Below are positions 3,607-64,000 of a DNA stretch of 64,000 nt, in pieces. A model generated the notes under the pieces. It saw only the letters and a program-made list of their open reading frames with translations. It was not told the origin of the DNA and made no database searches. Made by a program: the position numbers and the translations under genes. The DNA comes from Microcaecilia unicolor (lineage: Eukaryota), in NCBI RefSeq assembly GCF_901765095.1, contig NW_021963017.1:302253-366252 (forward strand), read 5' to 3'. How positions within the stretch are numbered: position 1 is the stretch's first letter; each line of letters opens with the position of its first letter.

Positions 3607-3639
3607 GTTAGTTACTGCTCTGGTACGTCCCACGCGTCT

Positions 3640-3737
3640 TGACCGGTCTGGAGGGTCGCTGAGGAAGGTGAAATTAGATCTTACCTGCTAATTTTCTTTC
3701 CTCTAGACCCTCCAGACCGGTCAAGAGCCCGCCCTGT
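3640..3737. repeat. ICR-like hairpin of DIRS copy A
   Basis: The sequence cttgaccggtctggagggtc (3640-3659) is followed at 3670-3737 by the exact reverse complement of the right terminus at 4128-4186. Confidence 0.6.
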
Positions 3738-4127
3738 CTGTATTGGAGGCCAGGAGGTGTGTTTGTTGGATAATTCTTGGCTGCTGTAGATTGTTGTTTC
3801 TCTAATTGCAGACTCTGTTTATTTCTGTTTTGTGATAGGAGTCTGGGACAGGTGAGGCTCTTCTTTGATAGTCCACCTGTAGAAGCCCAACTGTTTTATC
3901 AAAGGCAAAGGAACATGTTTCCGTAAGAGCAAGCGGAAGATGTTTCTTGTTTTTGCAGTTTACTGTGTCCATGTACAGGGTTGCTAGTTGTTGTTAGTGT
4001 TTTTTGTTTCTCTGCTTTGTCAGGGTTATACTGGCTAGTGGAGGTTCTGCACAGGTTATATATACAGGCTTCAAAAGCTTAGTGTTTTCTCAGTCTCCCT
4101 CTGCTGGTAGGAGGACATAACCCACGC

Positions 4128-4186
4128 GTCTTGACCGGTCTGGAGGGTCTAGAGGAAAGAAAATTAGCAGGTAAGATCTAATTTCA
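4128..4186 (+). repeat. Right terminal repeat of DIRS copy A
   Basis: The sequence is cttgaccggtctggagggtc plus tagaggaaagaaaattagcaggtaagatctaatttcacc. It is complementary to 3670-3737. The same architecture recurs at 8910-8960 and 19858-19920. Confidence 0.55.
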
Positions 4187-14185: not shown

Positions 14186-15539
14186 CTCAGCTTAGTAAAG
14201 AGCTCTCTAAAAGTGCCTGAGATGTTTGCTATGTCCTGGCCTTTTTGTTGTCTGTTTGTATGCAAATAAAGCACTGCTTAGCGTGTGCCTCTCTGCATTG
14301 GTAAATATTAGTGGACCTCTGACACTGTGAGGCAGATGCATGAAAGAAACTTAGAAGAACCGAAAACGTAAAGGTCCACGTTACAAGATACCGATTATGA
14401 AAAATTGACAGATGCTCATAACAAATTGCATGCAAATGAGTCGCTCGGTAATACAAAAAGGTCGATGCATGAAAGTCTCGCTAACCTGTTGAAATTCAAG
14501 GTAGCGGTGTAGCAAACACATGTGCACAATAGTCATTCGCTAAGCACACAGCAAATACTATAGCTGTTGTACGCATGTCTAAGTAGATCGCATCATAGAC
14601 GTGCATCCTGGGCATGTGAGATAGACGTCACTTGTAAGCAGAGCCTTATAGGCCACGGTCCGTGCGTGATTTTTTAATAGCTGTGCAGATGGTTACCGTA
14701 TGCTGTGCCACATTGCTTGCATCCCGTTTTTTTGAGGTGGTTTCACATTTTCATTGGTGAGTGTGGAGGGAGGGAGGAAGGGACAAAAAAATGGCAAAAA
14801 TACTTACAGATCTCGGGTACGAAGACCGCCTATTGAAGAGGTGCTGCAGCACTTCCCAGCCCTCGTCTATTCTTATTATGTTTCTCCTCTTCCCCTGTTG
14901 GGGGAAGAGGCACTTCTCATTTATATAACTATGAGCTGCGTAAGCCAGAGCACATCTGTGTTGGAGAAGTTGGGCTTTCTCCTGCAGGGACCATGTGCAG
15001 CCATGGCTTCTCCAAGACGGATGTACACATACGCACATATGCGTGAATGTCAATGACAGTGCTTATGCACGCACTTTATGGATGTGTTTATGTTGACGGC
15101 AGATGACAGCTCTCTGGAGTTATCGGCAGCCCCTGAGCACCCATTAAATATATCACGTTAAAGGTATGCAGACCTTTCTGTGCATTGCCTGTAAATGGCT
15201 GTGCATCATGCGTTGCCATCATTTAAATGAGAACCACATAATTGCAATACATTTGCACAGCTTTTTTGTTGCGCATTTGCGAGTGTGGTAAACAGGTTAC
15301 TGTAGACTTTTGCACATTCATCGCTAGATACCGTGGTCACTAAGCCAGTTGAAACTGGCTCAAAACAATTGTCCCGGCACGGTGAGTTTGATGCAAAATT
15401 ACAAATAATGAAGCATGGGCCATCGTATGGCATAGCTGTGATCCACCACAGCACAGGAGGCCTGTGTTTTGGGCTCTAGTTCATCAGGGTAAACAGCCAA
15501 AATGTATACTTCCATTAAGTTACTTCCCACTATTTCAGG

Positions 15540-15640
15540 ACGTGTGGGCAGTTCTGTCCATCGACCAGCAGGTGGAGATAGAAAACTCAGAACTGAGCTG
15601 TCCCATATACACTCAGCCAGCCAGCCCAGTTCTCCAGTAT
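15540..15640 (-). repeat. Fragment homologous to the spacer of the DIRS 3' modules
   Basis: It shares ccatcgaccagcag.tggaga.agaa...ctgagctgtcccatata.actca with 19790-19857, in the opposite orientation. Confidence 0.3.
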
Positions 15641-16959
15641 TTTCTGTTTCCATCAGGAAAAATGGACATGCATACTTTTCTGCTCCTGGTTCTGAGGCCC
15701 TGCTCCTGGCCAGTTAGTCAACTGGTCTCCCAGTCAAGCTTGGCGGGTAAAGGTCTAGTGGGAGTCATATCTGGTGGTTCCAGATCCCTGTCTCTGTTCC
15801 CCATAGAACCCTCCCCTCTCTGATTTGCCCTCTTCTCTCTCTGGTCCCGCAGAACCCTGCCCTCTTTGTTTTCCTCTCTGCTCTCTAGTGCTGCCGGACA
15901 ACATTAAAGCGGTATTAAAAAAAAAAATAAAGAAAAAAGGGCTCTCTTTATCACAGCAGCTTCCTGGGACACGGAGCAGGCATTGCAGGACTGTACTCCT
16001 GTGCAGCTCTGGGACAGCCCCCAGTCGGGGGGCTGTGAGGTGAGAGGTTTTTCAGGGGTGACAGTGGACTGGGGGGTACCCTGTATTGGAACGGCAGTGG
16101 AGAAGCACTGGGGGCCGGTTTCGGCAGTTTGAAAGAAAAGAAAGGCATGATGTCTGCTCTCCTGGCGTTTTCTACCACGGTGGGGGAAGTGCTCCTGACG
16201 GTCAAGGACTGCAGAGGCTGGGTGTGGCTTCCATCTAGCATGCTTCTGTTTGCTCCTGGCCTGGGGCTACAGTTGAGTGGCTGCTTCTTCCATGGGCTGC
16301 GGCTCCCCTGCCTTTGGCAGTGCTGGGTCAACGCTGGGATCAGTCCCGGTAATGCCGTGTCCCTGCCTTATTTGCTTGCCCTCCTCGGTGTGCCTTGGAG
16401 GGCTGGCGTGCCACTAGTTCTAGTTAAAAAAACAAAAAAACAAACACCCTCAAGATAGTCGCGTGAGCTGGGCTGCTTGTCTCCATCCGGCACTTTGTCT
16501 GGGTTCTTTGGGGGCTGTTGGCATTCCTGGAGGTTTGCTCTGCTGGTCCCCTTTGGGTCACTAAGTCAACCCGTTGCACCTCCCCCCCCCCCCCCCTTTT
16601 GGACCACTTGAAGTGTCTGTGCCTTCTCCTGGTCTGTCTATGCAGTCGCCCTCTGGGGCTGCGGTAGTCGCACAAGGGCTTCAGCCTCTTGTAATTTGTC
16701 CCCGATGTGGTCTTCTCCTTGGTCTTCAGGGGTCCTTGTTTCTTCGTTGTGAAGGTCTCTGACCACCGGCAGTCTCTTTGCTCAGGGCTGCCGTGGTCTC
16801 TTAGAGCTTAGGTCACAGACCTCTCATACTTTTCGGGATAGCAGCAGTAGCCTCCTTTCTGGGGACATTTTTTTTTCCTGTATGTGTCTGTGGCAGCAGC
16901 CACTTCTATTCCACAGAGTGTACTTCTCTGCACCTCTAGGGTGTTTTTTTTCTGGAGAG

Positions 16960-18190
16960 TCTCAGCAGCTTCAGCTGTTTTCTCTGTTGAGAGTTGCAGA
17001 TGCCTCCTGGTTTTCACCGGTACGGCAGTCTCCTCTCTTTGGGATTGCGGGCGCCTCCTGGGCTTTGCAGCCTTGGCAGTCTCCCCTCTGCAGAGTTGCA
17101 GATGCCTTTGGGGCTGCACTGCTGCGGCAGTCTCCTTGCTTCTGAGTGGCGTACCTCTCCTGGTCCTCTCGGCCACAGCAGCCTCCTTTTGGGTGGAGTT
17201 GCAGATGCCTAGGGGCATCACAGCTGCGGCAGTCTCCTCTTCGGAATTGCAGACGCCTATAGGGCTTCATAGCCACAGCAATCTCCTATATGAAGTTGCA
17301 GACACCTCCCGGGCGTCACAGCCATGGCAGTCTCCTCCTTTGGAGTAGCCTAGTGGTTAGTGCAGTGGACTTTGATACTAGTGAACTGGGTTCAATTCCC
17401 AGTGCAGCTTCTTGTGACTCTGGGAAAGTCACTTAACCCTCCATTGTCCCAGGTACAATAAGAACCTGTATATACTATGTAAACCGCTTTGAATGTAGTT
17501 GCAAAATCCACAGAAAGGCGGTATATCTGGTACCAGTCCCTCCCTCCCGGTATTCACAGCCACGGCAGTCTCCTCTTCACAGTTGCAGACACCTCCCGGG
17601 CTTCACAGTCACGGCAGTCTTCTCTTTGGTTTCAAATGCTTCCCGGGCTTCACAGCCACAGCAGTCTTCTCTTCGGAGTTGCAGAGGCCTCCTGGGCTTC
17701 ACAGCCACGGCAGTCTCCTCTTTGGAATCTTAGATGCCTCCTGCACTTCACAGCTACGGTGGTCTTTCCTTCGGAGTTGCAGTCACCTCTTGGCCTTCGC
17801 AGCCGAGGCAGTTTCTCCTTTTCAGGATTGCAGTCACCTCTTGCATTCACAGTCCTGGCAGTCTCCTCTCCAGAGATGCAGTTGCCTCCTGGTCTTCTAG
17901 CTGCTGTTTTCTCCACACTTTGGGGTTGCAGTCACCTCCTCAGCTTCACCATTATGGTAGTCTTTTCTCTTTGGAGTGGTTGTCACCTTTGGGCTTTCCA
18001 GCTATGACGGGCCTCTGTCTTCGGAGTTGCAGGTCACTCTGGTAATCCGTAGTCTTGGCAGTCTCCCTTCCTGGAATCCAGTGGTTTTCTTCTCCAGGGC
18101 TACACACTTCTTGGGGGCAACATACAGCTCTGGAGGTCCTCACTGTTTGCAGTCTCCTCTCTTCTGAGTTGCAGTCTCTTCTCTTGGGAG
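16960..18190. repeat. 48-bp minisatellite array of about 25 units, interrupted by a SINE
   Basis: The unit is cacggcagtctcctcttcggagttgcagacacctcccgggcttcacagc, with variants. A SINE sits at 17342-17527. Six-frame ORFs across the array show repeated peptides and are artefacts. Confidence 0.8.
17342..17527 (+). mobile_element. tRNA-derived SINE inserted into the minisatellite
   Basis: The sequence ggagtagcctagtggttagtgcagtggactttg...gtcacttaaccctccattg...gtaaaccgctttgaatg interrupts the 48-bp periodicity. Confidence 0.6.
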
Positions 18191-19546
18191 TTGAGGTCCC
18201 AGTTTCTGTGGTTGCTGCTGTTCTGAATTGATGCCATTGGGGGTATTTTCTCGGCTACAGGCTTCCCAGTCGGCTCCAGTAGTTCAGTGTTACTGCGGCA
18301 GTCTGCTTTCTCTGGAGTGGCGGACATCTTACAGCTGGAGGTTCGGTCAGCTTCTGCAGTCTTTGGACTTGGGATCTCGTTGGGAATGGCTGATTCATGC
18401 CACAGCGGCGGCCAGAATGTTGAGCTCCTGCCAACACTTGGGGAGAGCAAGTTTCCTCACGGCTCAGCAACGTTGCTGTTGGTGAGGTGGATTTGCCTAA
18501 TCCTCAGTGTGCTCATCCTAGAGCATGGACTCAGTGCAGGTCCTGGAACCTATGTCTGTGGCCAGGGAAGTGGTTCCTGGTGGGGAGGGATAGCTTCTGT
18601 CTATGGCAGTTCTCCCTTCTCTTTCGGTGATCCCCAGCCCCCCAGAGTTGACGCCGGCAGTGGCCTTGGTCCGCCAGGCAGGGCATGCACTGGGAGTTGT
18701 TCCCACAGCCGCCCTCCCTCAAGAGTTCCGCTTCCTATTTTGTATTGGGGCTGGCTACGGCATTCTTCCTTGACTTTCCATACAGAGGAGGTCCCTTCTG
18801 GAAAGAGGTTCGCCTTTGGAACCCCTTTCGAACTTTGTGTTCGGTTTGATTTGTCTGCCTTGTGCTGCGGACTCTGCCACATCTGTCCTTTGGCCCTCTC
18901 CGGAAGGCCAACAATATGGTTCATACGTTGCGTGAGGTGTTTTTGATGTCTCTTACCTCTGGAGTGCGGATTTCTGGGCGCGGTAGTGCTGGGACCTGTT
19001 CCTCTGTTGCCGGAGGCTGGGGTCTCAGTTCTGTCCGTCCCTCTCTGCCTCAGTTGGTTTCAGTATTCCAAGTCAGTTGGTTGGCGTATCATCTGGTGTT
19101 TCGCCGGGATGTTGCATTTCGCCTCACTGAGGCTTCTGGGTGGCCGTTGGAGTTGTTTGCACTTTCTTGAGGCTTCTCCTTCCTTCTGATGTTTGGTTCG
19201 TCTGTTCAGCCCTTTTAGGGATGACAGAGGTTGAGTCTCATGGCGTCCTTGGTCACCTTTGCCTCTTGGTTGGTAGGGACGCTTACTTCAGCTGTCTCTA
19301 CGTGCTGGATAGCAGCATCCTGTGCAGCATCCATCTTGTTGGCCCGGTGGCTTTTGGCAGAGCAGCAACATGGTTGTTATTGTATGCGTTTGCTGGGCTT
19401 CTCAGTGGATATTGTGGCCGTTCGGCGGGGGTGGTCAGGGCTTCGGTTCTCCAGGCAGCGGAGCTGGGGTCCCACCCTGTTAGGATTGCTTTTGAATATC
19501 CCATGTGTCCTGGAATTGTGGGAAGTAACATAATGAAGGAGAAATT

Positions 19547-19920
19547 AGGGCTTACCTGATGATAATTTTCTTTCCATTAGTTCTTCACAGTATTCCAGGA
19601 GCCCACCCCTGGACCTGTTTTGGTGGCAGGCTTTACAGCTTATGCACGGGCTGTCACTCTTTTGTCTATCTCTAAAGATACCGGGGACCTTCCGAGAGTC
19701 CGATTGTTTGGTCGTTTACAGTTGTAGAGGTTTTTGGTTTTATTCCTTCTGCTTGTTTAGGCAAATACTGGAGAACTGGGATGGCTGGCTGAGTATATAT
19801 GGGACAGCTCAGTTCTGTCTCCATCTGCTGGTCGATGGACAGAACTACCCACACATCCTGGAATAGTGTGAAGAACTAATGGAAAGAAAATTATCAGGTA
19901 AGCCCTAATTTCTCCATAGA
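19547..19920 (+). mobile_element. Solo DIRS 3' terminal module, made of an ICR, a 252-bp spacer and a right terminus
   Basis: Positions 19547-19605 are the reverse complement of 19858-19920 (cctggaatagtgtgaagaac plus taatggaaagaaaattatcaggtaagccctaatttctcc). The layout is the same as copy A at 3640-4186. Confidence 0.55.
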
Positions 19921-28979: not shown

Positions 28980-29990
28980 GCTTATTTTATAAAGACATAT
29001 CCATGTGTATTTTGGGGCTCTTTTACTAAAGTGAAGTAAGTTTTTTTTTTTTTTTTTTTTGAGGAGGGGGTTTGCACTTACCACACATTAACAGCCAAAT
29101 TTAGTGCATGATAAGTGCACAGGCTTTGTCTGTGCAATAACTGTTGGGGCGTATCCAACATGCCTTCTGCAGTTTCTGCGTAGACACATTTTCTACTAAG
29201 CCTTAACATCAAGTGTGATCAGCAAAGATGCACCTAATGCCACCTCTTGCGGAGACATTAAGTTCACCAGTGCTAACTGCACATTTGACAGCTTTGCTAC
29301 TCACTATGCGCATGCACTCCTACCAGCAGAGGGAGACTGAGAACACTAAACGTCTTATACAAGTAGCCTGTGTAGACCTTCTATTAACCAGTATTTTCTC
29401 AGTCTCAGGAAAGGGTAGATGTGTGCAGCCTGTGCAGTGTACTCAGTCTGGTAGGCCCGTTTGGGGTTTCTAGGTTGGGTTGTAAATGTTAGAGAACCCA
29501 CACTTGGATCTCTATTACAGGGTGTAAGTCCTAAGGGGCTTCTTATTCCCTGTGGGGTGTCACACCCGGGTGGCCGGGTCCCTCCCCCTGTGCTCTTCCT
29601 CTGGAGGACTGCTTGACCTCGGCTACAGACCTCGTTCTGTACCCTTAAGACATTTAGGCATCAGCAACGAGGTTTAAAAAAAAAAAAAAAAATAAACGTT
29701 TTTAAAAGGCGGCTATTTTGGCCGTTCTTGTGGCAGTCCAGAGATAAAACGTCTTCAAGGGCGTTCTTGCCTTAGGCGGTTTTGCCTATTAGTCTGTCAG
29801 AGCACAAAGCAACTGTTTGGTTTTATTGTGTTCGCGGCCATTATGTCTAAGCCGGCGAGGTGTCGGTTTTGCGCGAAGCGCAGCGTTGAAGTGAAAGGTG
29901 ATCTTATATTTAATGTTAATTTCCAATCAAATTACTTAAAAAAGGAGAAAAAAGACTCGTATGTCCCAGCTTGGCAGCATGTAATACATT

Positions 29991-30172
29991 CTTCTCCGAG
30001 GACAAGCAGGCTGCTTGTTCTCACTGATGGGTGACGTCCACGGCAGCCCCTCCAATTGGAAACTTCACTAGCAAAGGCCTTTGCTAGTCCTTGCGCGCCC
30101 ATGCGTACCGCGCATGCGCGGCCGTCTTCCCGCCCGAACCGGCTCGTGTTCGTCAGTCTTCTTTTGTCCGCG
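29991..30172 (+). repeat. Left inverted terminal repeat of the main DIRS copy
   Basis: It reads ttctccgaggacaagcaggctgcttgttctcactgatgggtgacgtccacggcagcccctccaattggaaacttcactagcaaaggcctttgctagtcc.... Its reverse complement is found at 35925-36131. Confidence 0.7.
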
Positions 30173-30569
30173 CTCGGGACGGTCGTGTTTTGCGCCGTTT
30201 CGTGCCCCTCAAAGTTGACCTTCGCGTGTCTTCGCGATTTCGTTTAAAAAAAAAAAAAAAAAAAAGAGAAGACCTCGGTCTTGTCCCTTCCCGTGTGTCC
30301 AGTTTGTTTCCCCGACCTAAGTTTCCTTTCGCTTTCGGGGTAGGCCTTTTTTGGAGCCTCAGTACGGGTTTTTTCTCTCCCTATTTTTGGTGCCCTTAGT
30401 CGCCATTACGAATTTTGATTTCGCCGGCGTGATTTTTCCGCCCATGTCCGAAGTCTCCCAGCGGCTTCAAGAAGTGCACCCAGTGCGCCCGGGTAATCTC
30501 GCTCACTGATAGGCACGCGTCGTGTCTTCAGTGTCTGGGGGCTGGGCACCGCCCGCAGGCCTGTAGTCT

Positions 30570-32678
30570 TTGCGCTCTTTTACAGAAGAGGACTCAGGTT
30601 GCGAGATTGGCCCAGTGGAACGTGTTGTTCTCGGGCTCTTCGTCGACAACAGCACCGGAGTCATCGAGTGCATCGATGTCGGCAGCATCAAGACCTTCGA
30701 CCTCGGCATCGACTGCATCAAGGTATCGACCCTCTGCATCGTCGGTACCGAAATGTCGGTGTCGGTGGTACCGGGACCTCCACTGTTGCTGATGTCGTCG
30801 GACGGTGGTGCTTCGACTGGAGTGCAGGTGAGGGCTGTCCATTCCCCTGCTGGTGGCGGTGAGCCTTCGGGTGGGTCTCCCCCTACCCTGAGGGCTCCTG
30901 CGGTACAGCCCCCCCCCCGAGACCGACCTTCTTCAGCCTCGGCCCCGAGGAAGAGACGGCTGGATTCTACGTCCTCCTCGTCGGTACCGAGAAGCTCCAG
31001 TGACATGCTTCGTTTGAAAAAATCAAAGAAGCATCGACACCGGTCTCCTTCCCGCATCGGTACCGAGAGCTCTGGGTCGCCGAGGGAGTCGGCACCCAGT
31101 AGGCATCGGCACCGGGAGGACCGCTCACCCTCTGTTCAGGAGGTGTCGATGCACTCCACCTTGGACAGCCCGGAACAGCCTCCACGCCCGGAACAGACTC
31201 TGACCTCGACGCCTGCATCGGCTTCCATGTCTTTCTCCACAGCCGCTCTGTACGAGAGTCTCCGGGCCGTTCTCCCGGAGATCCTGGGAGAGCTGTTGCG
31301 CCCTTCCCCTCCGGTACCGGGGGTGCTTGCGCCTCCGGTACCGTTGAGTGAGGCGCCAGCTGGCCCCTTGCCCGGGGTGAGGTCTCCGACATCAGTGCCG
31401 CTTGCGGTACCGACTGCGGCCGCCTCCCAGGAAGGCTCCCCGACGACGTCGGCGGAGGGAGCTTCGCCGGTGCTGGCGAGGGAGTCTACCTCTCGACGCT
31501 CCCACCGTGGCCGTGTTTCCACGGAGTCGAGTCGGGCACGGCTTCAGACACAGGTTCATGAACTTGTGTCTGATACCGATGGTGAGGCCTCGTGGGAGGA
31601 GGAGGAGGACATCAGATATTTCTCTGACGAGGAGTCTGATGGCCTTCCTTCTGATCCCACTCCCTCCCCTGAAAGGCACCTTTCTCCTCCCGAGAGTCTG
31701 TCTTTTGCGGCCTTTGTCCGGGAGATGTCTACGAACATCCCCTTCCTGGTGATTGTGGAGGATGAGCCCAGTGCTGAAATGTTTGAGCTCTTGGACTATC
31801 CTTCTCCACCTAAGGAAGCGTCCACAGTACCCATGCATCATGTCCTAAAAAAGACATTGCTGGCGAACTGGACCAAGCCTTTAACTAATCCCCACATTCC
31901 CAAGAAGATCGAGTCCCAGTACCGGATCCATGGGGACCCAGAGCTGATGCGCACTCAGTTGCCTCACGACTCTGGTGTGGTGGATCTGGCCCTAAAGAAG
32001 GCTAAGAGTTCTAGGGAGCATGCTTCGGCGCCCCCGGGCAAGGACTCTAGAACCTTAGACTCCTTTGGGAGGAAGGCCTACCATTCTTCTATGCTCGTGG
32101 CCAAAATTCAGTCTTACCAGTTCTACACGAGCATCCATATGCGGAACAATGTGCGACAGTTGGCGGGCTTGGTGGACAAGCTCCCTCCTGAGCAAGCCAA
32201 GCCATTTCAGGAGGTGGTCAGGCAGCTGAAGGCGTGCAGAAAATTCCTGGCCAGAGGGGTATATGATACCTTTGATGTTGCGTCCAGGGCCGCTGCTCAA
32301 GGTGTGGTGATGTGCAGACTCTCATGGCTGCGTGCCTCCGACCTGGAGAATAGGATCCAGCAGCGGATTGCGGACTCCCCTTGCCGAGCGGACAACATTT
32401 TTGGAGAGAAAGTCGAACAGGTGGTAGAGCAGCTCCACCAGCGGGATACCGCTTTCGACAAATTCTCCCGCCGGCAGCCTTCAGCATCTACCTCTTCAGG
32501 TAGACGTTTTTATGGGGGAAGGAAGACTGTTCCCTACTCTTCTGGTAAGCGTAGGTACAATCCTCCTTCTCGACAGCCTGCGGCCCAGTCTAAGCCCCAG
32601 CGCGCTCGCTCTCGTCAGCAGCATGCGCCTCAGCAAGGCCCCGCGGCTCCCCAGCAAAAGCAGGGGACGAGCTTTTGA
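30570..32678 (+). CDS. Gag-like ORF1 of the main DIRS copy (702 aa, Ser/Pro/Arg-rich)
   Basis: It is the longest ORF upstream of pol. Its C-terminal part is more than 90 percent identical to the Gag fragment of copy C (61841-62428). It ends at TGA 32676-32678. The first ATG is not certainly the true start. Confidence 0.55.
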   Translation: MRSFTEEDSGCEIGPVERVVLGLFVDNSTGVIECIDVGSIKTFDLGIDCIKVSTLCIVGTEMSVSVVPGPPLLLMSSDGGASTGVQVRAVHSPAGGGEPSGGSPPTLRAPAVQPPPRDRPSSASAPRKRRLDSTSSSSVPRSSSDMLRLKKSKKHRHRSPSRIGTESSGSPRESAPSRHRHREDRSPSVQEVSMHSTLDSPEQPPRPEQTLTSTPASASMSFSTAALYESLRAVLPEILGELLRPSPPVPGVLAPPVPLSEAPAGPLPGVRSPTSVPLAVPTAAASQEGSPTTSAEGASPVLARESTSRRSHRGRVSTESSRARLQTQVHELVSDTDGEASWEEEEDIRYFSDEESDGLPSDPTPSPERHLSPPESLSFAAFVREMSTNIPFLVIVEDEPSAEMFELLDYPSPPKEASTVPMHHVLKKTLLANWTKPLTNPHIPKKIESQYRIHGDPELMRTQLPHDSGVVDLALKKAKSSREHASAPPGKDSRTLDSFGRKAYHSSMLVAKIQSYQFYTSIHMRNNVRQLAGLVDKLPPEQAKPFQEVVRQLKACRKFLARGVYDTFDVASRAAAQGVVMCRLSWLRASDLENRIQQRIADSPCRADNIFGEKVEQVVEQLHQRDTAFDKFSRRQPSASTSSGRRFYGGRKTVPYSSGKRRYNPPSRQPAAQSKPQRARSRQQHAPQQGPAAPQQKQGTSF

Positions 32679-34600
32679 CTGGCTCCACAGAGCATAGCCG
32701 ACATCAACGTATCAGTGCCGGGCGATCTGCCGGTCGGGGGGAGGTTGAAAGTTTTTCACCAAAGGTGGCCTCTCATAACCTCCGACCGTTGGGTTCTTCA
32801 AATAGTCCGGCAAGGATACACCCTCAATTTGGCCTCGAAACCTCCAAATTGCCCACCGTGAGCTCAATCCTACAGCTTCCAGCACAAGCAGGTACTTGCA
32901 GAGGAACTCTCCGCCCTTCTCAGCGCCAATGCGGTCGAGCCTGTGCCATCTGGGCAAGAAGGGCTGGGATTCTATTCCAGGTACTTCCTTGTGGAAAAGA
33001 AAACGGGGGGATGCGTCCCATCCTAGACCTAAGGGCCCTGAACAAATATCTGGTCAAGGAAAAGTTCAGGATGCTTTCCCTGGGCACCCTTCTTCCCATG
33101 ATTCAGGAAAACGACTGGCTATGCTCTCTGGACTTGAAGGACGCCTACACGCACATCCCAATACTGCTAGCTCACAGGCAGTATCTGCAATTTCAGCTGG
33201 GCACACGTCACTTCCAGTACTGTGTGCTACCCTTTGGGCTCGCCTCTGCGCCCAGAGTGTTCACGAAGTGCCTGGCTGTAGTAGCAGCGGCGCTTCGCAG
33301 GCTGGGAGTACACGTGTTCCCCTATCTCGACGATTGGCTGGTGAAGAACACATCCGAGGCAGGAGCTCTACAGTCCATGCAGATGACTATTCGCCTCCTG
33401 GAGCTACTGGGGTTTGTGATAAATTATCCAAAGTCCCATATTCTCCCAGTACAGAGACTGGAATTCATAGGAGCTCTGCTGGATTCTCGGATGGCTCGTG
33501 CCTGTCTCCCAGAGGCGAGAGCCAACAACTTGTTGTCCCTCGTCTCTCGGGTGCGAGCGTCCCAGCAGATCACAGCTCGGCAGATGTTGAGATTGTTGGG
33601 CCACATGGCCTCCACAGTTCATGTGACTCCCATGGCCCGCCTTCACATGCGATCTGCTCAATGGACCCTAGCTTCCCAGTGGTTTCAGGCTGCTGGGGAT
33701 CTAGAAGACGTGATCCACCTGTCCACGAGTTTTCTCAAATCCCTGTATTGGTGGACGATTTGGTCCAATTTGACTCTGGGACGTCCTTTCCAAATTCTTC
33801 AACCACAAAAAGTGCTGACTACGGATGCGTCTCTCCTGGGGTGGGGAGCTCATGTCGATGGGCTTCACACCCAGGGAAGCTGGTCCCTCCAGGAACGCGA
33901 TCTGCAGATCAATCTCCTGGAGTTACGAGCGGTCTGGAACGCTCTGAAGGCTTTCAGAGATCGGCTGTCCCACCAAATTATCCAAATTCAGACAGACAAC
34001 CAGGTTGCCATGTATTACATCAACAAGCAGGGGGGCACCGGATCTCGCCCCCTGTGTCAGGAAGCCGTCAGCATGTGGCTCTGGGCTCGTCGTCACGGCA
34101 TGGTGCTCCAAGCCACATATCTGGTACGCATAAACAACAGTCTGGCCGACAGGTTGAGCAGGATCATGCAACCTCACGAGTGGTCACTCAACTCCAGAGT
34201 AGTGCGCCAGATCTTCCAGGTGTGGGGCACCCCCTTGGTAGATCTCTCTGCATCTCGAGCCAACCACAAAGTCCCTCAGTTCTGTTCCAGACTTCAGGCC
34301 CACTGCAGACTGGCATCGGATGCCTTCCTCCTGGACTGGGGGGAAGGTCTGCTGTATGCTTATCCTCCCATACCTCTGGTGGGGAAGACTTTGTTGAAAC
34401 TCAAGCAAGACCGGGGCACCATGATTCTGATTGCTCCTTTTTGGCCGCGTCAGATCTGGTTCCCTCTTCTTCTGGAGTTGTCCTCCGAAGAACCGTGGAG
34501 ATTGGAGTGTTTTCCGACCCTCATCACACAGGATGAGGGGGCGCTTCTGCATCCCAACCTCCGGTCCCTGGCTCTCATGGCCTGGATGTTGAGAGCATAG
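32679..34600 (+). pseudogene. Pol of the main DIRS copy, comprising RT, RNase H and a C-terminal domain. It is in frame with Gag beyond the TGA. It carries an internal TGA at 32859 and a -1 frame change at a G6 run (33003-33008).
   Basis: Frame 0 reads SVPGDLPVGGRLKVFHQRWPLITSDRWVLQIVRQGYTLNLASKPPNCPP*...LVEKKTGG. Frame 2 then reads MRPILDLRALNKYL...YLDDWLV...TTDASLLGWGAHV.... Confidence 0.7.
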
Positions 34601-34611
34601 ACTTTGCCTCT

Positions 34612-35614
34612 TTGGGTCTGTCAGAGGGTGTCTCCCGTATCTTGCTTGCTTCCAGGAAAGATTCCACTAAGAGGAGTTGCTTCTTTTTATGGAGGAGGTT
34701 TGCCGTCTGGTGTGACAGCAAGGCCCTAGATCCTCGCTCTTGTCCTACACAGACCCTGCTTGAATACCTTCTGCACTTGTCTGAGTCTGGTCTCAAGACC
34801 AACTCTGTAAGGGTTCACCTTAGTGCAATCAGTGCATACCATTACCGTGTGGAAGGTAAGCCGATCTCAGGACAGCCTTTAGTTGTTCGCTTCATGAGAG
34901 GTTTGCTTTTGTCAAAGCCCCCCGTCAAGCCTCCTACAGTGTCATGGGATCTCAATGTCGTTCTCACCCAGCTGATGAAACCTCCTTTGAGCCACTGAAC
35001 TCCTGCCATCTGAAGTACTTGACCTGGAAGGTCATTTTCTTGGTGGCAGTTACTTCAGCTCGTAGAGTCAGTGAGCTTCAGGCCCTGTAGCCCAGGCCCC
35101 TTACACCAAATTTCATCATAACAGAGTAGTCCTCCGCACTCACCCTAAGTTTTTGCCGAAGGTAGTGTCGGAGTTCCATTTGAACCAGTCAATTGTCTTG
35201 CCAACATTCTTTCCCCGTCCTCATTCCTGCCCTGCTGAACGTCAGCTGCACACATTGGACTGCAAAAGAGCATTGGCCTTCTATCTGGAGCGGACACAGC
35301 CCAACAGACAGTCCGCCCAATTGTTTGTTTCTTTCGATCCCAACAGGAGGGGAGTGGCTGTGGGGAAACGCACCATATCCAATTGGCTAGCAGATTGCAT
35401 TTCCTTCACTTACGCCCAGGCTGGGCTGGCTCACAATGTCAGAGTAATGGCTGCGTCAGTGGCCCACTTGAAGTCAGCCACTATTGAAGAGATCTGCAAA
35501 GCTGCGACGTGGTCATCTGTCCACACATTCACATCTCATTACTGCCTGCAGCAGGATACCCGACGCGACAGTCGGTTCGGGCAGTCAGTGCTTCAGAATC
35601 TGTTCGGGGTTTAG
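34612..35614 (+). pseudogene. Tyrosine recombinase of the main DIRS copy, disrupted by a frameshift near 34985 and a TAG near 35095
   Basis: ORF 34612-34998 and ORF 35153-35614 are collinear with the intact YR of copy A. A shifted frame in between reads FEPLNSCHLKYLTWKVIFLVAVTSARRVSELQAL*. Confidence 0.6.
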
Positions 35615-35774
35615 AATCCAACTCCACCCCCCTAGTCCCATGTTTATTCTGTTCCAGGCTACACTCTCAGTTAGTTGGATAAATTGTTAGGTCAATCTCA
35701 GTTATGTCCTCGCCGTTGCGAGGCCCAATTGACCTTGTTTGTTGTTTTTGAGTGAGCCTGGGGGCTAGGGATAC

Positions 35775-35873
35775 CCCATCAGTGAGAACAAGCAGCCTGC
35801 TTGTCCTCGGAGAAAGCGAATGCTACATACCTGTAGAAGGTATTCTCAGAGGACAGCAGGCTGATTGTTCTTA
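35775..35873 (+). repeat. Internal complementary region (ICR) of the main DIRS copy
   Basis: The sequence ccatcagtgagaacaagcagcctgcttgtcctcggagaa is the reverse complement of the left-ITR start. The sequence agcgaatgctacatacctgtagaaggtattctcagaggacagcaggctgattgttcttac is the reverse complement of the right-ITR end. Confidence 0.75.
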
Positions 35874-35924
35874 CAAACCCGCCCGCCTCCCCTTTGGAGT
35901 TGTGTCTTCCCTTGTCTTTGTCTT

Positions 35925-36131
35925 GCTACATATGAGACTGACGAACACGAGCCGGTTCGGGCGGGAACACAGCCGCGCATGCGCGGTACGCATGGGCGCA
36001 CGCGGACTAGCAAAGGCCTTTGCTAGTGAAGTTTCCGATTGGAGGGGCTGCCGTGGACGTCACCCATCAGTGAGAACAATCAGCCTGCTGTCCTCGGAGA
36101 ATACCTTCTACAGGTATGTAGCATTCGCTTT
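35925..36131 (+). repeat. Right inverted terminal repeat of the main DIRS copy, with a 3' extension of about 30 nt
   Basis: It is the reverse complement of 29991-30172. It ends ...ggagaataccttctacaggtatgtagcattcgcttt. Confidence 0.7.
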
Positions 36132-37157
36132 TGTGCCAGCATTCAATGGACTCCAGCCTTATCGGTTTAGAAAAAAAAATCCTCCTTTCTAAAACATTTT
36201 ATTATGATTTATTTTGGGGTATAGGGCACTTTAAAAATGTCTTTATCATGATGTATTCAAACATTAAAGAATATATTTAAGAGCACTTAGCTTTTGAGGT
36301 TGACACCCCAACCGGGCTCTCCGTTTCACTATTACTCAAGCTTCTTCAGGGTACTAAGTACTGTACGTTCTGAATAAACCTAAAAAGATGATATAAAATA
36401 CATCAATGTTGATAATATATGTGAGAAATTGTGTTTTTTAGAAAGGAGTTTTTTTCTAGACCGATGATAAGACTGAAGTCCGTTGAATGCTGGCACAAAC
36501 AATGTTATTACTTGCTGCCCAGCTGGGACATATGAGATCTTTTTCCTCCTTTTTTTTTTTTAAGTAGTTTGTTTGGAAATGAACATTAAATATAAGGTTT
36601 ACAATCATCTACACTCTTCAGCTGTATAGATTGTTCACACGTTGGATATTTCGCTGAAGTATTTGCTTATTTAGAAGTTTGTACACTAATGGCAAAATTG
36701 TTGCATGAGAAAGGCACAGCGAAGGTAACAAGGTGGATGATGTCGATGAAACTACTACTGGACTCAAAAAAAGTTCACAGCAAGAGTTATTGATAAAGAC
36801 TGGACTCGACACGATCGTTGTTTCGGCCGCTCTGGCCTGCTCAGGGGTCCCTGTCTATTGATGTTCAGTTAGTCCCTGAAGAGAAAATCTGAAATATTTA
36901 GTAAAGCCAAAGTACGCTCTGGTGAAGAAACTTCACTGTAGCACTTAAGTACGAGCGGCACTCTTCAGTGATTGTCATCATTGCTGCATGTCCATTAATG
37001 CAAAAAAAAAAAAAAAGGAAATCAGCCATTTTACTGCTGTGGTTAAAATGGCCTTAGCGTGAGGGGAAAACCTGTGTAAGGGTGCACTAAGGACAGTTTC
37101 TACTGCAGCTTAGTAAAATGACCCCCTAATGAAAGCCTCACAGTCAGCTATTAAAAA

Positions 37158-61328: not shown

Positions 61329-61828
61329 GTAAGTACTGGTCTAAATTCTAACAATATTATTGTGTTAGAAATTCTGTTGACAGTTATATGACAAAGATCT
61401 TTGTCTCTATCACAGGATCTCAAGAATGTTAATCTTTTAGATACATTAACTAACTTGAATCAATACCACTACCAACTGTATACACATCAAGGAACTTGAA
61501 ATAGTGTCCAAATGCATTGTATCGTAGATCAAATGTTTCATTTTGTGAATTATAAACAATGCACAGGTATGTCATAAATACAAGTCATACTGATTTTGTA
61601 GTTGGGTGAGGATCCTGTCCCAAAGTGCTTACCATTTAACTAGGAAGAAAGGGTGACATACAAAAGATGGTTTTAAGAGTAGTACCTTGAGCACAAAGGT
61701 GGGTTTTCTAGAGGTTATTAGAATGCTTGTTTGAAGAAGCATTTTTTCAGATAGGACTTCCCATGAGGGGCTTCTTGCATATTGTAAAAGAGAGAAAATT
61801 TAGAAGGTATTTTGAGTATTGATATGTC

Positions 61829-64000
61829 TACCATTCCTCTATGCTCGTGGCCAAAATTCAGTCTTACCAGCTCTACATGAGCATACACATGCGGAACAAT
61901 GTGCGGCAGTTGGCGGGCTTGGTGGACAAGCTCCCTCCTGAGCAAGCCAAGCCATTTCAGGAGGTGGTCAGGCAGCTGAAGGCGTGCAGAAAATTCCTGG
62001 CCAGAGGGGTGTATGACACCTTTGATGTTGCGTCCAGGGCCGCTGCTCGAGGTGTGGTGATGCGCAGACTCTCATGGCTGCATGCCTCCGACCTGGAGAA
62101 TAGGATCCAGCAGCGGATTGCGGACTCGCCTTGCCGTGCGGATAATATTTTTGGAGAGAAGGTCGAACAGGTGGTAGAGCAGCTCCACCAGCGGAATACC
62201 GCTTTCGACAAGTTCTCCCGCCAGCAGCCCTCAGCTTCTACCTCCACAGGTAGACGTTTTTATGGGGGAAGGAAGACTGTTCCCTACTCTTCTGGCAAGC
62301 GTAGGTACAATCCTCTTTCTCAACAGCCTGCGGCCCAGGCTAAGGCCCAGCGCGCTCGCTCTCGTCAGCAGCGTGCGCCTCAGCAAGGCCCCTCGGCTCC
62401 CCAGCAAAAGCAAGGGACGAGCTTTTGACTGGCTCCAGCAGAGCATAGCCGCCATCCAAGTGTCAGTGCCGGGCGATCTACCGGTCGGAGGGAGGTTGAA
62501 AGTTTTTCACCAAAGGTGGCCTCTCATAACCTCCGATCAGTGGGTTCTTCAAATAGTCCGGCAAGGATACACCCTCAATTTGGCCTCCAAACCTCCAAAC
62601 TGCCCACCGGGAGCTCAGTCTTACAGCTTCCAGCACAAGCAGGTACTTGCAGAGGAACTCTCCGCCCTTCTCAGCGCCAATGCGGTCGAGCCCGTGGGCC
62701 GGGCAAGAAGGGCTGGGATTCTATTCCAGGTACTTCCTTGTGGAAAAGAAAACAGGGGGATGCGTCCCATCCTAGACCTAAGGGCCCTGAACAATATCTG
62801 GTCAAGGAAAAGTTCAGGATGCTTTCCCTGGGCACCCTTTCCCCATGATTCAGGAAAACGATTGGCTATGCTCTCTGGACTTGAAGGACGCCTACACGCA
62901 CATCCCGATACTGCCAGCTCACAAACAGTATCTGCGATTTCAGCTGGGCACACGTCACTTCCAGTACTGTGTGCTACCCTTTGGGCTCGCCTCTGCGCCC
63001 AGAGTGTTCACGAAGTGCTTGGCTGTAGTAGCAGCGGCACTTCGCAGGCTGGGGGTACACGTGTTCCCATATCTCGACGATTGGCTGGTGAAGAACACAT
63101 CCGAGGCAGGAGCTCTACAGTCCATGCAGATGACTATTCGCCTCCTGGAGCTACTGGGGTTTGTGGTAAATTATCCAAAGTCCCATCTTCTCCCAGTACA
63201 GAGACTCGAATAGGAGCTCTGCTGGATTCTCGGACGGCTCATGCCTATCTCCCAGAGACGAGAGCCAACAACTTGTTGTCCCTCGTCTCTCGGGTACGAG
63301 CGTCCCAGCAGATCACAGCTCGGCAGATGTTGAGATTGTTGGGCCACATGGCCTCCACAGTTCATGTGACTCCCATGGCCCGCATTCACATGAGATCTGC
63401 TTCAATGGACCCTAGCTTCCCAGTGGTTTAAGGCTGCTGGGGATCTAGAAGACGTGATCCACCTGTCCACGAATTTTCTCAAATCCCTGTATTGGTGGAC
63501 GATTTGGTCCAATTTGACTCTGGGACGTCCTTTCCAAATTCCTCAGCCACAAAAGTGCTGACTACGGATGCGTCTCTCCTGGGGTGGGGAGCTCATGTCG
63601 ATGGGCTTCACACCCAGGGAAGCTGGTCCCTCCAGGAACGCGATCTGCAGATCAATCTTCTGGAGTTACGAGCGGTCTGGAACGCTCTGAAGGCTTTCAG
63701 AGATTGGCTGTCCCACCAAATTATCCAAATTCAGACAGACAACCAGGTTGCCATGTATTACATCAACAAGCAGGGGGGCACGGATCTCGCCCCCTGTGTC
63801 AGGAAGCCGTCAGCAGGTGGCTCTGGGCTCGCCGTCACGGCATGGTGCTCCAAGCCACATATCTGGCAGGCGTAAGCAACAGTCTGGCCGACAGACTGAG
63901 CAGGATTATGCAACCTCACGAGTGGTCGCTCAATTCCCGAGTAGTGCGCCAGATCTTCCAGGTGTGGGGCACCCCTTGGTAGATCTCTTTGCATCTCGAG
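61829..64000 (+). mobile_element. DIRS-like retrotransposon copy C. It is 5'-truncated in mid-Gag, degraded, and runs past the window end.
   Basis: It is about 90-95 percent identical to 32068 onward in the main copy. The Gag tail is at 61841-62428, RT fragments at 62262-63431 (with deletions and frame changes), and RNase H at 63492-63982. Confidence 0.8.

What the first reader, a model, noticed from the sequence alone, without database searches (positions are those of the whole stretch)
29991..36131. Near-complete DIRS-like retrotransposon with textbook ITR and ICR geometry, killed by three small lesions
The complete DIRS architecture is readable from the sequence alone. There is a left ITR of about 180 bp, then Gag, RT-RNase H and a tyrosine recombinase. 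The ICR consists of the complement of the left-ITR start immediately followed by the complement of the right-ITR end. The right ITR has an extra extension of about 30 nt. Coding capacity is nearly intact, but three lesions are present. Pol has a GGA to TGA change at 32859, where copy C has GGA. A one-base frame change sits in a G6 run at 33003-33008. The YR has a frameshift near 34985 and a TAG near 35095. Few differences from copy C suggest recent activity. It is the best available template for reconstructing an active consensus of this family.
Basis: partly seen in the sequence, partly recalled or inferred. Interest (0 to 1): 0.6.

Follow-up and report, generated by a model that had tools for sequence, protein, structure and literature searches.

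The report
Dead full-length DIRS1-like retrotransposon copy

Summary
The repeat geometry is real. The left inverted terminal repeat (ITR) 29992-30159 pairs with the right ITR 35935-36101 (168 nt, 95%). A 30-nt right extension runs to 36131. The internal complementary region (ICR) 35775-35874 is the complement of the first 40 nt of the element (100%) abutting the complement of its last 62 nt (97%). The coding order is Gag (zinc knuckle plus LAP2alpha-like domain), RT, RNase H, Dam-like methyltransferase, then a Cre-like tyrosine recombinase with its conserved catalytic residues in place. The host flank is itself an inverted repeat. Its other arm reconstructs the empty site and shows insertion at a TTT with no target-site duplication. 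All dimensions match published Anolis and Xenopus DIRS1-like elements.

The lesion list is an undercount. TGA 32859 is real and absent from copy C. The G-run frameshift sits at 33005-33010, and copy C is also frame-broken there. The recombinase has two 1-nt deletions, and the TAG is a by-product of the second. It also has a 21-nt in-frame deletion. Gag has two further frameshifts.

Copies A and C differ by 4.1% in substitutions plus indels, which is not "few". Those differences are biased to third codon positions (pN/pS about 0.25), so the family evolved under selection. The ITR/ICR mismatches (1.6-3.2%) imply an insertion millions of years old. This is a new member of a known kind, and interest is low.

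The parts
29903..29991 (.). Host left flank: outer part of the left arm of a host inverted repeat into which the element inserted
   Evidence: With the element removed, 29903..29991 plus 36132..36194 aligns continuously as a reverse complement to 36596..36436 (82%, 165 bp).
29992..30159 (+). Left terminus (left ITR). The outer 'divergent' part, about 29992-30014, matches the left ICR half. The conserved part is 30015-30159. It contains a perfect 22-nt palindrome at 30067-30088. CpG observed/expected is 1.05.
30160..30443 (+). 5' leader between the ITR and the Gag ATG; contains an A20 run at 30246-30265
   Evidence: sequence.
30444..32678 (+). Gag (ORF1), broken. The ATG at 30444 is in frame 0. 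The zinc-knuckle N-terminus (GFKKCTQC...H..C..CLG..H....C..C) is in frame 1. The LAP2alpha-like C-terminal domain is in frame 0 (about 31584-32520). The stop is TGA at 32676-32678.
   Evidence: Frames. The N-terminus matches a Rhinatrema protein, P0226 (MSKKQSGFKPC...), at E 2e-9. The C-terminal domain has 225 relatives, the best E 3.5e-66, named 'lamina-associated polypeptide 2-like'. Pfam LAP2alpha scores 0.003.
30455..30460 (+). Lesion: inferred 1-nt insertion (TCTCCCAGC) that puts the Gag ATG out of frame with the zinc knuckle
   Evidence: Removing one base gives MSEVSSGFKKC, which has the same spacing as P0226 MSKKQSGFKPC.
30567..30789 (+). Lesion: a second Gag frameshift (frame 1 back to frame 0) somewhere in this low-complexity stretch; the exact site is not resolvable
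   Evidence: Frame 1 ends at 30789 and frame 0 opens at 30567. Intact relatives carry both domains in one ORF.
32679..34600 (+). Pol, broken: RT about 32991-33472 (YLDD present), RNase H about 33812-34150, methyltransferase-like domain about 34178-34597, stop TAG at 34598-34600
   Evidence: Pfam RVT_1 1.3e-19 and RT_RNaseH 5e-4. 1157 homologues, the best 50% identical. Alignment A3 gives the invariant catalytic columns. For the methyltransferase region, 12 of 14 homologues weakly hit Pfam Dam.
32859..32861 (+). Lesion: in-frame TGA (GGA in copy C)
33005..33010 (+). Lesion: 1 nt missing at the G6 run, between the conserved KKTGG motif (frame 0) and MRPILDL (frame 2). Copy C (ACAGGGGGATG) is frame-broken at the same place.
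34612..35614 (+). Tyrosine recombinase ORF, broken, read in frames 1 to 0 to 2. It has an N-terminal core-binding (SAM-like) domain. By my assignment the catalytic residues are R (ARRVSE, 35058), K (FLPKV, 35150), H-x-x-R (AHNVR, 35429), W (ATWSS, 35504) and Y (TSHY, 35531-35542). The stop is TAG at 35612-35614. TTG at 34612 stands where homologues have ATG.
34984..34986 (+). Lesion: 1-nt deletion (CCTCC-TTT), frame 1 to 0
   Evidence: The repaired junction PPFEP matches the family consensus.
35085..35090 (+). Lesion: 1-nt deletion at 35086/7 (frame 0 to 2). The TAG at 35088-35090 is a by-product.
   Evidence: The repaired SELQALVAQAPY aligns without a gap to 25 homologues and to the in-window divergent DIRS.
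35428..35429 (+). Lesion or family trait: 7 codons missing just upstream of the H-x-x-R box, relative to all 25 aligned homologues
35775..35874 (+). Internal complementary region. The left half, 35775-35814, is the reverse complement of the element's first 40 nt. The right half, 35813-35874, is the reverse complement of its last 62 nt. The junction is AAA at 35813-35815.
35935..36131 (+). Right terminus: right ITR 35935-36101 plus right extension 36102-36131. The same 22-nt palindrome is at 36006-36027.
36132..36596 (.). Host right flank: the rest of the left arm, the loop and the right arm of the host inverted repeat. It supplies a surrogate empty site, ACATT(G)TTTGTGCC.
   Evidence: (I3, I5, I6, I7).
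61828..64000 (+). Copy C: a 5'-truncated second copy of the same family, equivalent to 32078-34259, running off the window end
   Evidence: 95.3% identity over 2184 bp. Details.

Best explanation
Window 29992-36131 is one full-length, inactivated genomic copy (6140 bp) of a vertebrate DIRS1-like tyrosine-recombinase retrotransposon.

How it works. The life cycle below is taken from the Cappello model, and only the ICR requirement has been tested, in Dictyostelium DIRS-1 (PMC7192593). None of it is shown for this element.
- A sub-genomic RNA starts inside the left terminus and ends inside the right one.
- Pol (RT/RNase H) makes single-stranded cDNA.
- The missing left ITR is copied from the right ITR.
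- The two termini anneal side by side on the ICR, so the element ends are rebuilt and joined. The junction here would read GCATTCGC-TTT-CTCCGAGG.
- The resulting circle is made double-stranded.
- The Cre-like recombinase crosses it over with a genomic TTT, leaving no target-site duplication.

Shown here:
- every structural part that model needs;
- the domain set Gag, RT, RNase H, methyltransferase, recombinase;
- an insertion junction consistent with crossover in a T-run and without a duplication.

Inferred:
- the copy was probably coding-competent when it inserted;
- it has since decayed neutrally: one nonsense codon, at least five 1-nt frameshifts, a 21-nt deletion, and 1.6-3.2% mismatch between sequence pairs that the model makes identical at insertion.

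It cannot make Gag, Pol or the recombinase now.
For: Repeats. ITR, ICR and right extension are present with E-values from 1e-14 to 1e-72. The two left/right ITR differences in the outer 23 nt are each mirrored in the matching ICR half. A 20-nt motif, AGCAGGCTG[C/A]TTGTTCTCAC, occurs in both termini and both ICR halves (D1, D4, I14). Piednoel et al. 2011 (PMC3266345) describe exactly this.

Dimensions. This element: 6140 bp, divergent ITR about 23, conserved ITR about 145, right extension 30, ICR 40-62, junction AAA. Published values: AcDIRS2 5997 / 26 / 136 / 28 / 39-60 / AAA; XtDIRS3 6196 / 11 / 123 / 34 / 41-65 / AAA.

Domains.

Insertion site. The host sequence is continuous across the insertion when compared with its own other arm. 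T-count bookkeeping is 3 (target) + 3 (circle junction) = 2 + 4 observed. There is no target-site duplication.

Relatives. Intact relatives on metagenome contigs have three ORFs in the same order. Those contigs also carry inverted repeats I read as an ICR / right-terminus pairing (L002) and a collapsed ITR (L003).

Selection. A-versus-C substitutions fall 22/21/47 at codon positions 1/2/3, and pN/pS is about 0.25. The family was therefore a functional, evolving lineage.

Age. CpG observed/expected is 0.68 in the element against 0.35-0.46 in the flanks. This fits a moderately young insertion.
Against: - The empty site is inferred from the other arm of a host inverted repeat (82% similar), not from a true orthologous empty allele.
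- The T-run split is 2 + 4 rather than the 3 + 3 expected from an in-register conservative exchange.
- The methyltransferase assignment for this copy rests on alignment to homologues. This copy gives no Pfam Dam hit, and a profile of the region finds nothing in the PDB.
- The frame break at the G-run might be a homopolymer sequencing error.
- The life-cycle steps are borrowed from Dictyostelium DIRS-1, and that study found mostly linear single-stranded cDNA rather than circles.
Confidence: 0.93

Rival explanations
1. The copy is very young and almost active. Only three private lesions separate it from a functional element.
For: - The left ICR half matches the left terminus 40/40.
- Long open stretches remain: 703 codons in Gag frame 0 and 529 codons in Pol from 33011.
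- The CpG content is still high.
- All indels that distinguish A from C in Pol downstream of 33011 are in copy C.
Against: - At least six frame-disrupting lesions are present, plus a 21-nt deletion and substitutions at conserved motifs.
- There are 6 mismatches in the 145-nt conserved ITR and 2 in 62 between the right ICR half and the right terminus.
- The G-run break is also present in copy C.
Confidence: 0.05
2. The frame break at the G-run is ancestral to copies A and C. On this reading, both descend from an already RT-defective lineage that was mobilised in trans by autonomous relatives.
For: - Both copies have the same length and the same frame change at the same spot.
- The DIRS-1 RT can act in trans on another DIRS-1 transcript (PMC7192593).
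- A non-coding element with DIRS-type termini lies in the same window.
Against: - A-versus-C divergence in Pol on both sides of the break shows purifying selection. That is hard to reconcile with a break that predates their split.
- Two independent adjacent 1-nt deletions from ACAGGGGGGATG are equally parsimonious: loss of the A in copy A, and loss of a G in copy C.
- A homopolymer sequencing error in both copies is also possible.
Confidence: 0.25
3. It is a different kind of element: an LTR (Ty3/gypsy) retrotransposon, a Ngaro or PAT-like tyrosine-recombinase retroelement, or a Crypton DNA transposon.
For: The RT/RNase H domains are of the Ty3/gypsy-related type (Pfam RT_RNaseH). All these groups share either an RT or a tyrosine recombinase.
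Against: - No direct repeat longer than 31 nt exists in 29500-36700, so there are no LTRs and no split direct repeats.
- The termini are inverted and an ICR is present.
- No Pfam hit to an integrase appears.
- A methyltransferase domain is present, which Ngaro and VIPER lack (PMC3266345).
- An RT is present, which Cryptons lack.
- There is no target-site duplication.
Confidence: 0.01

Closest known systems
Vertebrate DIRS1-like elements AcDIRS1/AcDIRS2 (Anolis carolinensis) and XtDIRS2/XtDIRS3 (Xenopus tropicalis), annotated by Piednoel et al. 2011 (PMC3266345, Table 3)
   Same: - Size of about 6 kb.
- Only a right extension, of 26-34 nt.
- Short divergent ITR plus a conserved ITR of about 120-140 nt.
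- ICR halves of about 40 and about 60 nt.
- T-rich terminal trinucleotides and an AAA circular junction.
- Domain order Gag, RT, RNase H, methyltransferase, recombinase.
- No target-site duplication.
   Different: I could not compare sequences directly with those references, because they are not held in the tools. The closest proteins found anywhere are only about 50-55% identical in Pol and recombinase and 37-39% in Gag. This is therefore a separate family. In this copy Gag and Pol are in the same frame, separated by a single TGA.
Dictyostelium discoideum DIRS-1 (Cappello model; tested by Malicki et al. 2020, PMC7192593)
   Same: - Inverted, non-identical termini whose outer ends are repeated side by side in an ICR (33 + 55 nt there, 40 + 62 nt here).
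- A tyrosine recombinase instead of a DDE integrase.
- The ICR is shown to be essential for retrotransposition in DIRS-1.
   Different: DIRS-1 is 4.8 kb, with ITRs of about 330 bp and extensive overlap of the recombinase and Pol ORFs. No LAP2alpha-like or zinc-knuckle Gag similarity to DIRS-1 was tested here.
Caecilian and turtle DIRS1-like elements with LAP2alpha-like Gag (Rhinatrema bivittatum predicted proteins; turtle elements in Abascal et al. 2015, PMC4495291; Ichthyophis DIRS/DIRS in PMC8498967)
   Same: - The Gag C-terminal domain is homologous (E 3.5e-66 to a Rhinatrema 'lamina-associated polypeptide 2-like' protein).
- The N-terminal MS...SGFK.C..C...S.TD.H..C..CLG..H....C..C knuckle is shared with Rhinatrema P0226.
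- DIRS-like elements make up 26% of this window, against 26-30% of the Ichthyophis genome.
   Different: Identity is only 37-39%. The host species of the window was not identified.

Membership tests
DIRS1-like retrotransposons (DIRS superfamily, order DIRS) | Reverse transcriptase of the Ty3/gypsy-related type | tested here: met
   Pfam RVT_1 scores E 1.3e-19, 71 bits against a cut-off of 29.6. YLDD and the LPFGL..APRVFTK motifs fall in invariant columns.
DIRS1-like retrotransposons (DIRS superfamily, order DIRS) | RNase H downstream of the RT | tested here: met
   Pfam RT_RNaseH scores 20.6 bits, below the 24.8 cut-off. The TDAS, LEL, TDN and AD.LSR motifs fall in invariant columns of alignment A3, and all are present.
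DIRS1-like retrotransposons (DIRS superfamily, order DIRS) | Methyltransferase-like domain after RNase H (present in DIRS1 and PAT, absent in Ngaro and VIPER) | tested here: met
   Residues 501-640 of the repaired Pol align at 42-48% identity to the same region of 13 homologues, and all 17 invariant columns are kept. Twelve of 14 members weakly hit Pfam Dam, best E 3e-4. This copy does not hit Dam itself, and its DLFA motif reads DLSA. A profile search of the PDB found nothing.
DIRS1-like retrotransposons (DIRS superfamily, order DIRS) | Tyrosine recombinase with the catalytic R, K, H-x-x-R, W/H and Y residues, encoded 3' of Pol and in the same orientation | tested here: met
   The repaired ORF has 100 homologues, the best E 2e-121. 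R177, K209, H300, W326 and Y336 are invariant columns and R303 is nearly invariant; I take these as the catalytic residues. The profile hits Cre/Tre at about 1e-7, including the HxxR..W..Y block. The ORF itself is broken by two frameshifts.
DIRS1-like retrotransposons (DIRS superfamily, order DIRS) | Inverted terminal repeats, not direct LTRs | tested here: met
   168 nt at 95.2%. No direct repeat longer than 31 nt was found.
DIRS1-like retrotransposons (DIRS superfamily, order DIRS) | ICR: the complements of the left-terminus start and the right-terminus end lie adjacent, overlapping at a 2-3-nt circular junction | tested here: met
   35775-35814 (40/40) and 35813-35874 (60/62), with a 2-nt overlap within AAA.
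DIRS1-like retrotransposons (DIRS superfamily, order DIRS) | A terminal extension that is complementary only to the ICR | tested here: met
   A right extension at 36102-36131 (30 nt). There is no left extension.
DIRS1-like retrotransposons (DIRS superfamily, order DIRS) | Integration without a target-site duplication, at a short sequence identical to the circular junction | tested here: met
   The surrogate empty site from the host's other repeat arm reads ACATT(G)TTTGTGCC. The occupied site has TT on the left and TTTT on the right, and the junction in the ICR is TTT/AAA. A true empty allele was not available.
DIRS1-like retrotransposons (DIRS superfamily, order DIRS) | ORF1 (Gag) of the vertebrate DIRS1 type (LAP2alpha-like) | tested here: met
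   Pfam LAP2alpha scores E 0.003, below the cut-off. There are 225 relatives, 84 of them at or below 1e-10. The top hits are named LAP2-like. The link between the LAP2alpha domain and DIRS1 Gag comes from PMC4495291.
PAT-like / Ngaro retrotransposons | Split direct repeats at the termini (Ngaro also lacks the methyltransferase domain) | tested here: not met
   Only short, chance-level direct repeats were found. The termini are inverted and a methyltransferase domain is present.
LTR retrotransposons (Ty3/gypsy) | Direct LTRs, a DDE integrase and a 4-6-bp target-site duplication | tested here: not met
   No direct LTRs. No integrase hit in Pfam. No target-site duplication.
Autonomous (currently active) element | Intact Gag, Pol and recombinase reading frames | tested here: not met
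   One nonsense codon, at least five frameshifts and a 21-nt deletion.

The most novel reading that the evidence does not exclude
The family might express Pol by unusual recoding. One route would be read-through of the in-frame Gag stop: UGA-CUG is shared by both copies, and a caecilian relative, P0222, has Gag and Pol fused in the same frame. A second route would be slippage at the G-run inside the RT. On that reading, the 'lesion' shared by two copies whose divergence shows purifying selection would be a feature, not damage.
Probability: 0.05. Interest if true: 0.5.

Novelty: new member of a known kind. Interest (0 to 1): 0.17.

Why it matters
The value is modest.
- The copy has base-exact ends and a surrogate empty site. 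It illustrates DIRS integration at a T-run without a target-site duplication.
- It is a usable scaffold for a family consensus in what looks like a DIRS-rich, caecilian-like genome.
- It does not change what is known about DIRS biology.
- Anyone wishing to resurrect an active element must repair at least seven sites, not three. They must also decide from other copies how Gag and Pol are joined and whether the G-run break is real.

Tried and rejected
- Gag homologue search with a two-frame concatenated query. Nothing passed 1e-5, probably because low-complexity words filled the candidate list. It was replaced by an exhaustive search with the C-terminal domain.
- Host identification. Rfam and tRNA scan found nothing. 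Pfam on ten other long ORFs found nothing. The best protein relatives point to amphibians, sarcopterygians and turtles, with Gag closest to a caecilian. The host remains unidentified.
- Recoding signals. There is no unusually stable RNA structure after the Gag UGA (z -0.46) or after the G-run (z +0.59). Copy C lacks a slippery heptamer. Programmed read-through or frameshifting is therefore unsupported, though not excluded.
- Methyltransferase-region profile against the PDB: no hit.
- Relative contig L001: no inverted repeats. I take the contig to be cut at its repeats.
- The extra G in copy C after the Gag stop (32687/8) was considered as a further lesion of copy A. Three intact relatives have Pol in the +1 frame relative to Gag, which favours that reading. 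The closest Gag relative, P0222, runs through in frame exactly as copy A does, which goes against it. This is left unresolved.
- Segmental duplication as the origin of copy C is rejected. Its flank is unrelated, and it starts abruptly at element position 32078.


Full report
**1. The observation**

- Left terminus 29992-30159 pairs as an inverted repeat with 35935-36101 (168 columns, 95.2%, E 9e-72).
- The first 40 nt of the element (29992-30031) recur as a perfect reverse complement at 35775-35814 (E 3e-14).
- The last 62 nt (36070-36131) recur as a reverse complement at 35813-35874 (60/62, E 2e-23).
- The two internal copies abut and share 2 nt inside an AAA (35813-35815; sequence).
- The right terminus runs 30 nt beyond the end of the ITR alignment (36102-36131), which is the 'right extension'.

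An explicit left-versus-right alignment shows one indel and one mismatch in the outer 23 nt. Each of these is mirrored in the corresponding ICR half. There are six mismatches in the inner 145 nt. A 20-nt motif (AGCAGGCTG[C/A]TTGTTCTCAC) is present four times, once in each terminus and once in each ICR half (D1, D4, I14). The element is 6140 bp.

**2. Coding content**

Stop-to-stop maps of the three forward frames and Pfam give the following order.

*Gag.*
- The C-terminal domain has 225 relatives in an exhaustive HMMER search (best E 3.5e-66).
- The best relatives are Rhinatrema bivittatum (caecilian) proteins, one of them named 'lamina-associated polypeptide 2-like'.
- Pfam LAP2alpha scores E 0.003. 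That domain is known to derive from DIRS1-like ORF1 (PMC4495291).
- The N-terminus is a Cys/His knuckle that matches Rhinatrema P0226 from its first residues (E 2e-9).

*Pol.*
- RVT_1 scores E 1.3e-19 and RT_RNaseH 5e-4.
- There are 1157 homologues. The best are about 50% identical and come from Pleurodeles, Pelodiscus and Lissotriton.
- In a 20-sequence alignment, the RT motifs (YLDD, LPFGL..APRVF) and the RNase H motifs I take as catalytic (TDAS, LEL, TDN, AD.LSR) fall in invariant columns and are present here.
- The last 140 residues are the DIRS 'methyltransferase' region, 42-48% identical to homologues with all 17 invariant columns kept. Twelve of 14 members give weak Pfam Dam hits, although this copy does not.

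*Tyrosine recombinase.*
- After frame repair, the ORF finds 100 homologues (best Latimeria, 55%, E 2e-121).
- The positions I assign as the catalytic residues (R177, K209, H300, R303, W326, Y336) are invariant or nearly invariant columns.
- The family profile hits Cre/Tre recombinase at about 1e-7, across both the core-binding domain and the HxxR..W..Y block.

**3. Insertion site**

The host flank is itself an inverted repeat. With the element deleted in silico, 29903..29991 plus 36132..36194 aligns continuously, as a reverse complement, to 36596..36436 (82%, 165 bp). This fixes the element ends to within 2 nt and provides a surrogate empty site, ACATT(G)TTTGTGCC.

The occupied site reads ACATTC-TT-[CTCCGAGG...GCATTCGC]-TTTT-GTGCC. 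The junction encoded by the ICR is GCATTCGC-TTT-CTCCGAGG. The T counts balance: 3 in the target plus 3 in the circle equals 2 + 4 observed. No target-site duplication exists.

This is what the DIRS model predicts, namely recombination between the junction trinucleotide and an identical genomic trinucleotide (PMC3266345; PMC7192593). Two caveats apply. The split is 2 + 4 rather than 3 + 3, and the 'empty site' is a paralogous arm rather than an allele.

**4. Lesions**

- *(a) TGA 32859-32861.* Confirmed. Copy C has GGA.
- *(b) G-run.* It lies at 33005-33010. The conserved KKTGG motif is in frame 0 and MRPILDL is in frame 2, so one base is missing. The repaired spacing, KK-4 residues-RPILDL, matches the divergent DIRS elsewhere in this window.
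  - Copy C has ACAGGGGGATG where copy A has ACGGGGGGATG. The length and the frame break are the same.
  - Two readings are equally parsimonious: a shared deletion plus one substitution, or two independent adjacent deletions from ACAGGGGGGATG. Privacy of this lesion is therefore unresolved. A homopolymer read error also remains possible.
- *(c) Recombinase.* One base is missing at 34985/6 (frame 1 to 0). A second is missing at 35086/7 (frame 0 to 2). The TAG at 35088-35090 is only the out-of-frame consequence of the second. Both repaired junctions align without gaps to 25 homologues.
  - The Gag ATG (30444, frame 0) is out of frame with the zinc knuckle (frame 1). Removing one base from TCTCCCAGC gives MSEVSSGFKKC, the same spacing as P0226 MSKKQSGFKPC.
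  - Frame 1 closes at 30789 while the Gag C-terminal domain is in frame 0. A second Gag frameshift must therefore lie in 30567-30789.
  - Seven codons are missing just before the recombinase HxxR box, relative to all 25 homologues.
  - TTG stands where Latimeria homologues have the recombinase ATG.
  - Conserved motifs carry substitutions: DLFA to DLSA, AHSTR to AHNVR, and 'HIPG' to LVRI.

The minimum count is one nonsense codon plus five frameshifts.

**5. Age and history**

Copies A and C share 95.3% identity over 2184 bp, with 90 substitutions (66 transitions, 19 of CpG type) and 13 indel columns. That is not 'few'.

The substitutions fall 22/21/47 on codon positions 1/2/3. There are 40 non-synonymous and 50 synonymous changes, so pN/pS is about 0.25. 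Much of the A-C distance therefore arose in coding-constrained, active lineages before the two insertions.

A simple two-phase split, assuming omega of 0.1 while active, leaves about 1.6% neutral divergence shared between the two copies. This is inference.

Independently, some sequence pairs should be identical at insertion under the replication model. Their mismatches are:

| Pair | Mismatches |
|---|---|
| Conserved ITR | 6 of 145 |
| Left ICR half vs left terminus | 0 of 40 |
| Right ICR half vs right terminus | 2 of 62 |
| Total | 3.2% |
| Total excluding CpG transitions | 1.6% |

At a neutral rate of 1-2.5e-9 per site per year, which is an assumption because the host is unknown, that is roughly 3-16 million years.

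CpG observed/expected is 0.68 in the element and about 1.05-1.1 in the termini, against 0.35-0.46 in the flanks. This agrees with a moderately young but not recent insertion. Copy C carries most of the indels and is 5'-truncated at element position 32078 next to unrelated AT-rich DNA.

**6. Gag-Pol junction**

Both copies share the Gag stop in a TGA-CTG context. In copy A, Pol continues in the same frame. Copy C has one extra G at 32687/8, which puts Pol in the +1 frame behind an ATG at 32623.

Three intact relatives on metagenome contigs have Pol in the +1 frame relative to Gag and the recombinase in the Gag frame. That favours the copy C state. The closest Gag relative, P0222, runs from Gag into Pol in one frame with E at the stop position. 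That favours the copy A state.

No stable RNA structure follows the stop (z -0.46) or the G-run (z +0.59). I leave the junction unresolved and do not count it as a lesion.

**7. Comparison with known elements**

The dimensions match the vertebrate DIRS1-like references tabulated by Piednoel et al. 2011.

| Element | Length (bp) | Divergent ITR | Conserved ITR | Right extension | ICR halves | Junction |
|---|---|---|---|---|---|---|
| This element | 6140 | about 23 | about 145 | 30 | 40-62 | AAA |
| AcDIRS2 | 5997 | 26 | 136 | 28 | 39-60 | AAA |
| XtDIRS3 | 6196 | 11 | 123 | 34 | 41-65 | AAA |

PAT-like and Ngaro elements (split direct repeats), Ty3/gypsy elements (LTRs, integrase, target-site duplication) and Cryptons (no RT) are each excluded by a tested feature. 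The element is a member of the DIRS1-like superfamily. With at most 55% protein identity to anything retrieved, it represents a distinct family. The mechanism is the standard one.

**8. Context**

About 26% of the window has DIRS-type structure. This is similar to the 26-30% reported for a caecilian genome (PMC8498967). The nearest Gag proteins are caecilian. The host is probably an amphibian of that kind, but it was not identified.

**9. Verdict**

The annotation is correct and careful, and the biology is ordinary. The title claim of three lesions and the inference of recent activity need correction.

Noticed in passing
window 15513-19896: A roughly 4.4-kb element with DIRS-type geometry but no detectable coding capacity.
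- ITRs 15523-15642 / 19763-19873 (90-96%).
- An internal block at about 19506-19600 is complementary to both ends (the right half about 98%).
- The interior holds 49-51-nt tandem repeats at 16980-18072.
- None of 370 DIRS Gag, Pol or recombinase proteins hits it by tblastn, and its ORFs have no Pfam hit.
- It is a candidate non-autonomous DIRS derivative.
- The two ICR halves overlap by about 25 nt, which I did not resolve.
   Followed up: partly
window 1-4190: A second, divergent DIRS1-like family. Pol lies at 1071-2554 and the recombinase at 2536-3582, at 29-40% amino-acid identity to the element studied, with several stops. The right ICR half 3665-3726 is 100% complementary to the right-terminus end 4129-4190. 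The 5' part runs off the window.
   Followed up: partly
window 29903-29991 and 36132-36596: The host sequence that received the insertion is a roughly 550-bp inverted-repeat (foldback or MITE-like) structure, with arms of about 165 nt at 82% and a loop of about 240 nt. No other copy is present in the window. The target (CATTC-TTT) resembles the element's own right end (CATTCGC-TTT).
   Followed up: partly
window 62262-63431 (copy C): In copy C, a 2-nt deletion at 62696 and the 1-nt deficit at the G-run 60 nt downstream add up to 3 nt. A 389-codon ATG-initiated ORF therefore stays open, with about 20 residues of the conserved GFYS..KK.GG block read out of frame. This may be chance (my rough estimate, about 9%) or compensation.
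   Followed up: no
window 32676-32690 and 62427-62442: The Gag stop TGA-CTG is shared by both copies. Pol is in frame with Gag in copy A, but in the +1 frame, behind an ATG at 32623, in copy C because of one extra G. Which state is ancestral is unresolved.
   Followed up: partly
window 30067-30088 and 36006-36027; 36102-36131: A perfect 22-nt palindrome (ACTAGCAAAGGCCTTTGCTAGT) sits in both ITRs. A 6-bp hairpin (ATACCT/AGGTAT) sits in the right extension. The right terminus folds better than shuffled sequence (z -2.2). The termini are CpG-island-like (observed/expected about 1.05-1.1). A role in priming, promoter activity or recombinase binding is speculation.
   Followed up: partly
window 30246-30265: An A20 run lies in the 5' leader between the left ITR and the Gag ATG. 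A similar GTTTA17 run lies 570 bp upstream in the host flank (29672-29695).
   Followed up: no
whole window: About 26% of the 64 kb is DIRS-type sequence (four elements). No tRNA or Rfam family was found, and none of the ten other long ORFs tested has a Pfam domain.
   Followed up: yes
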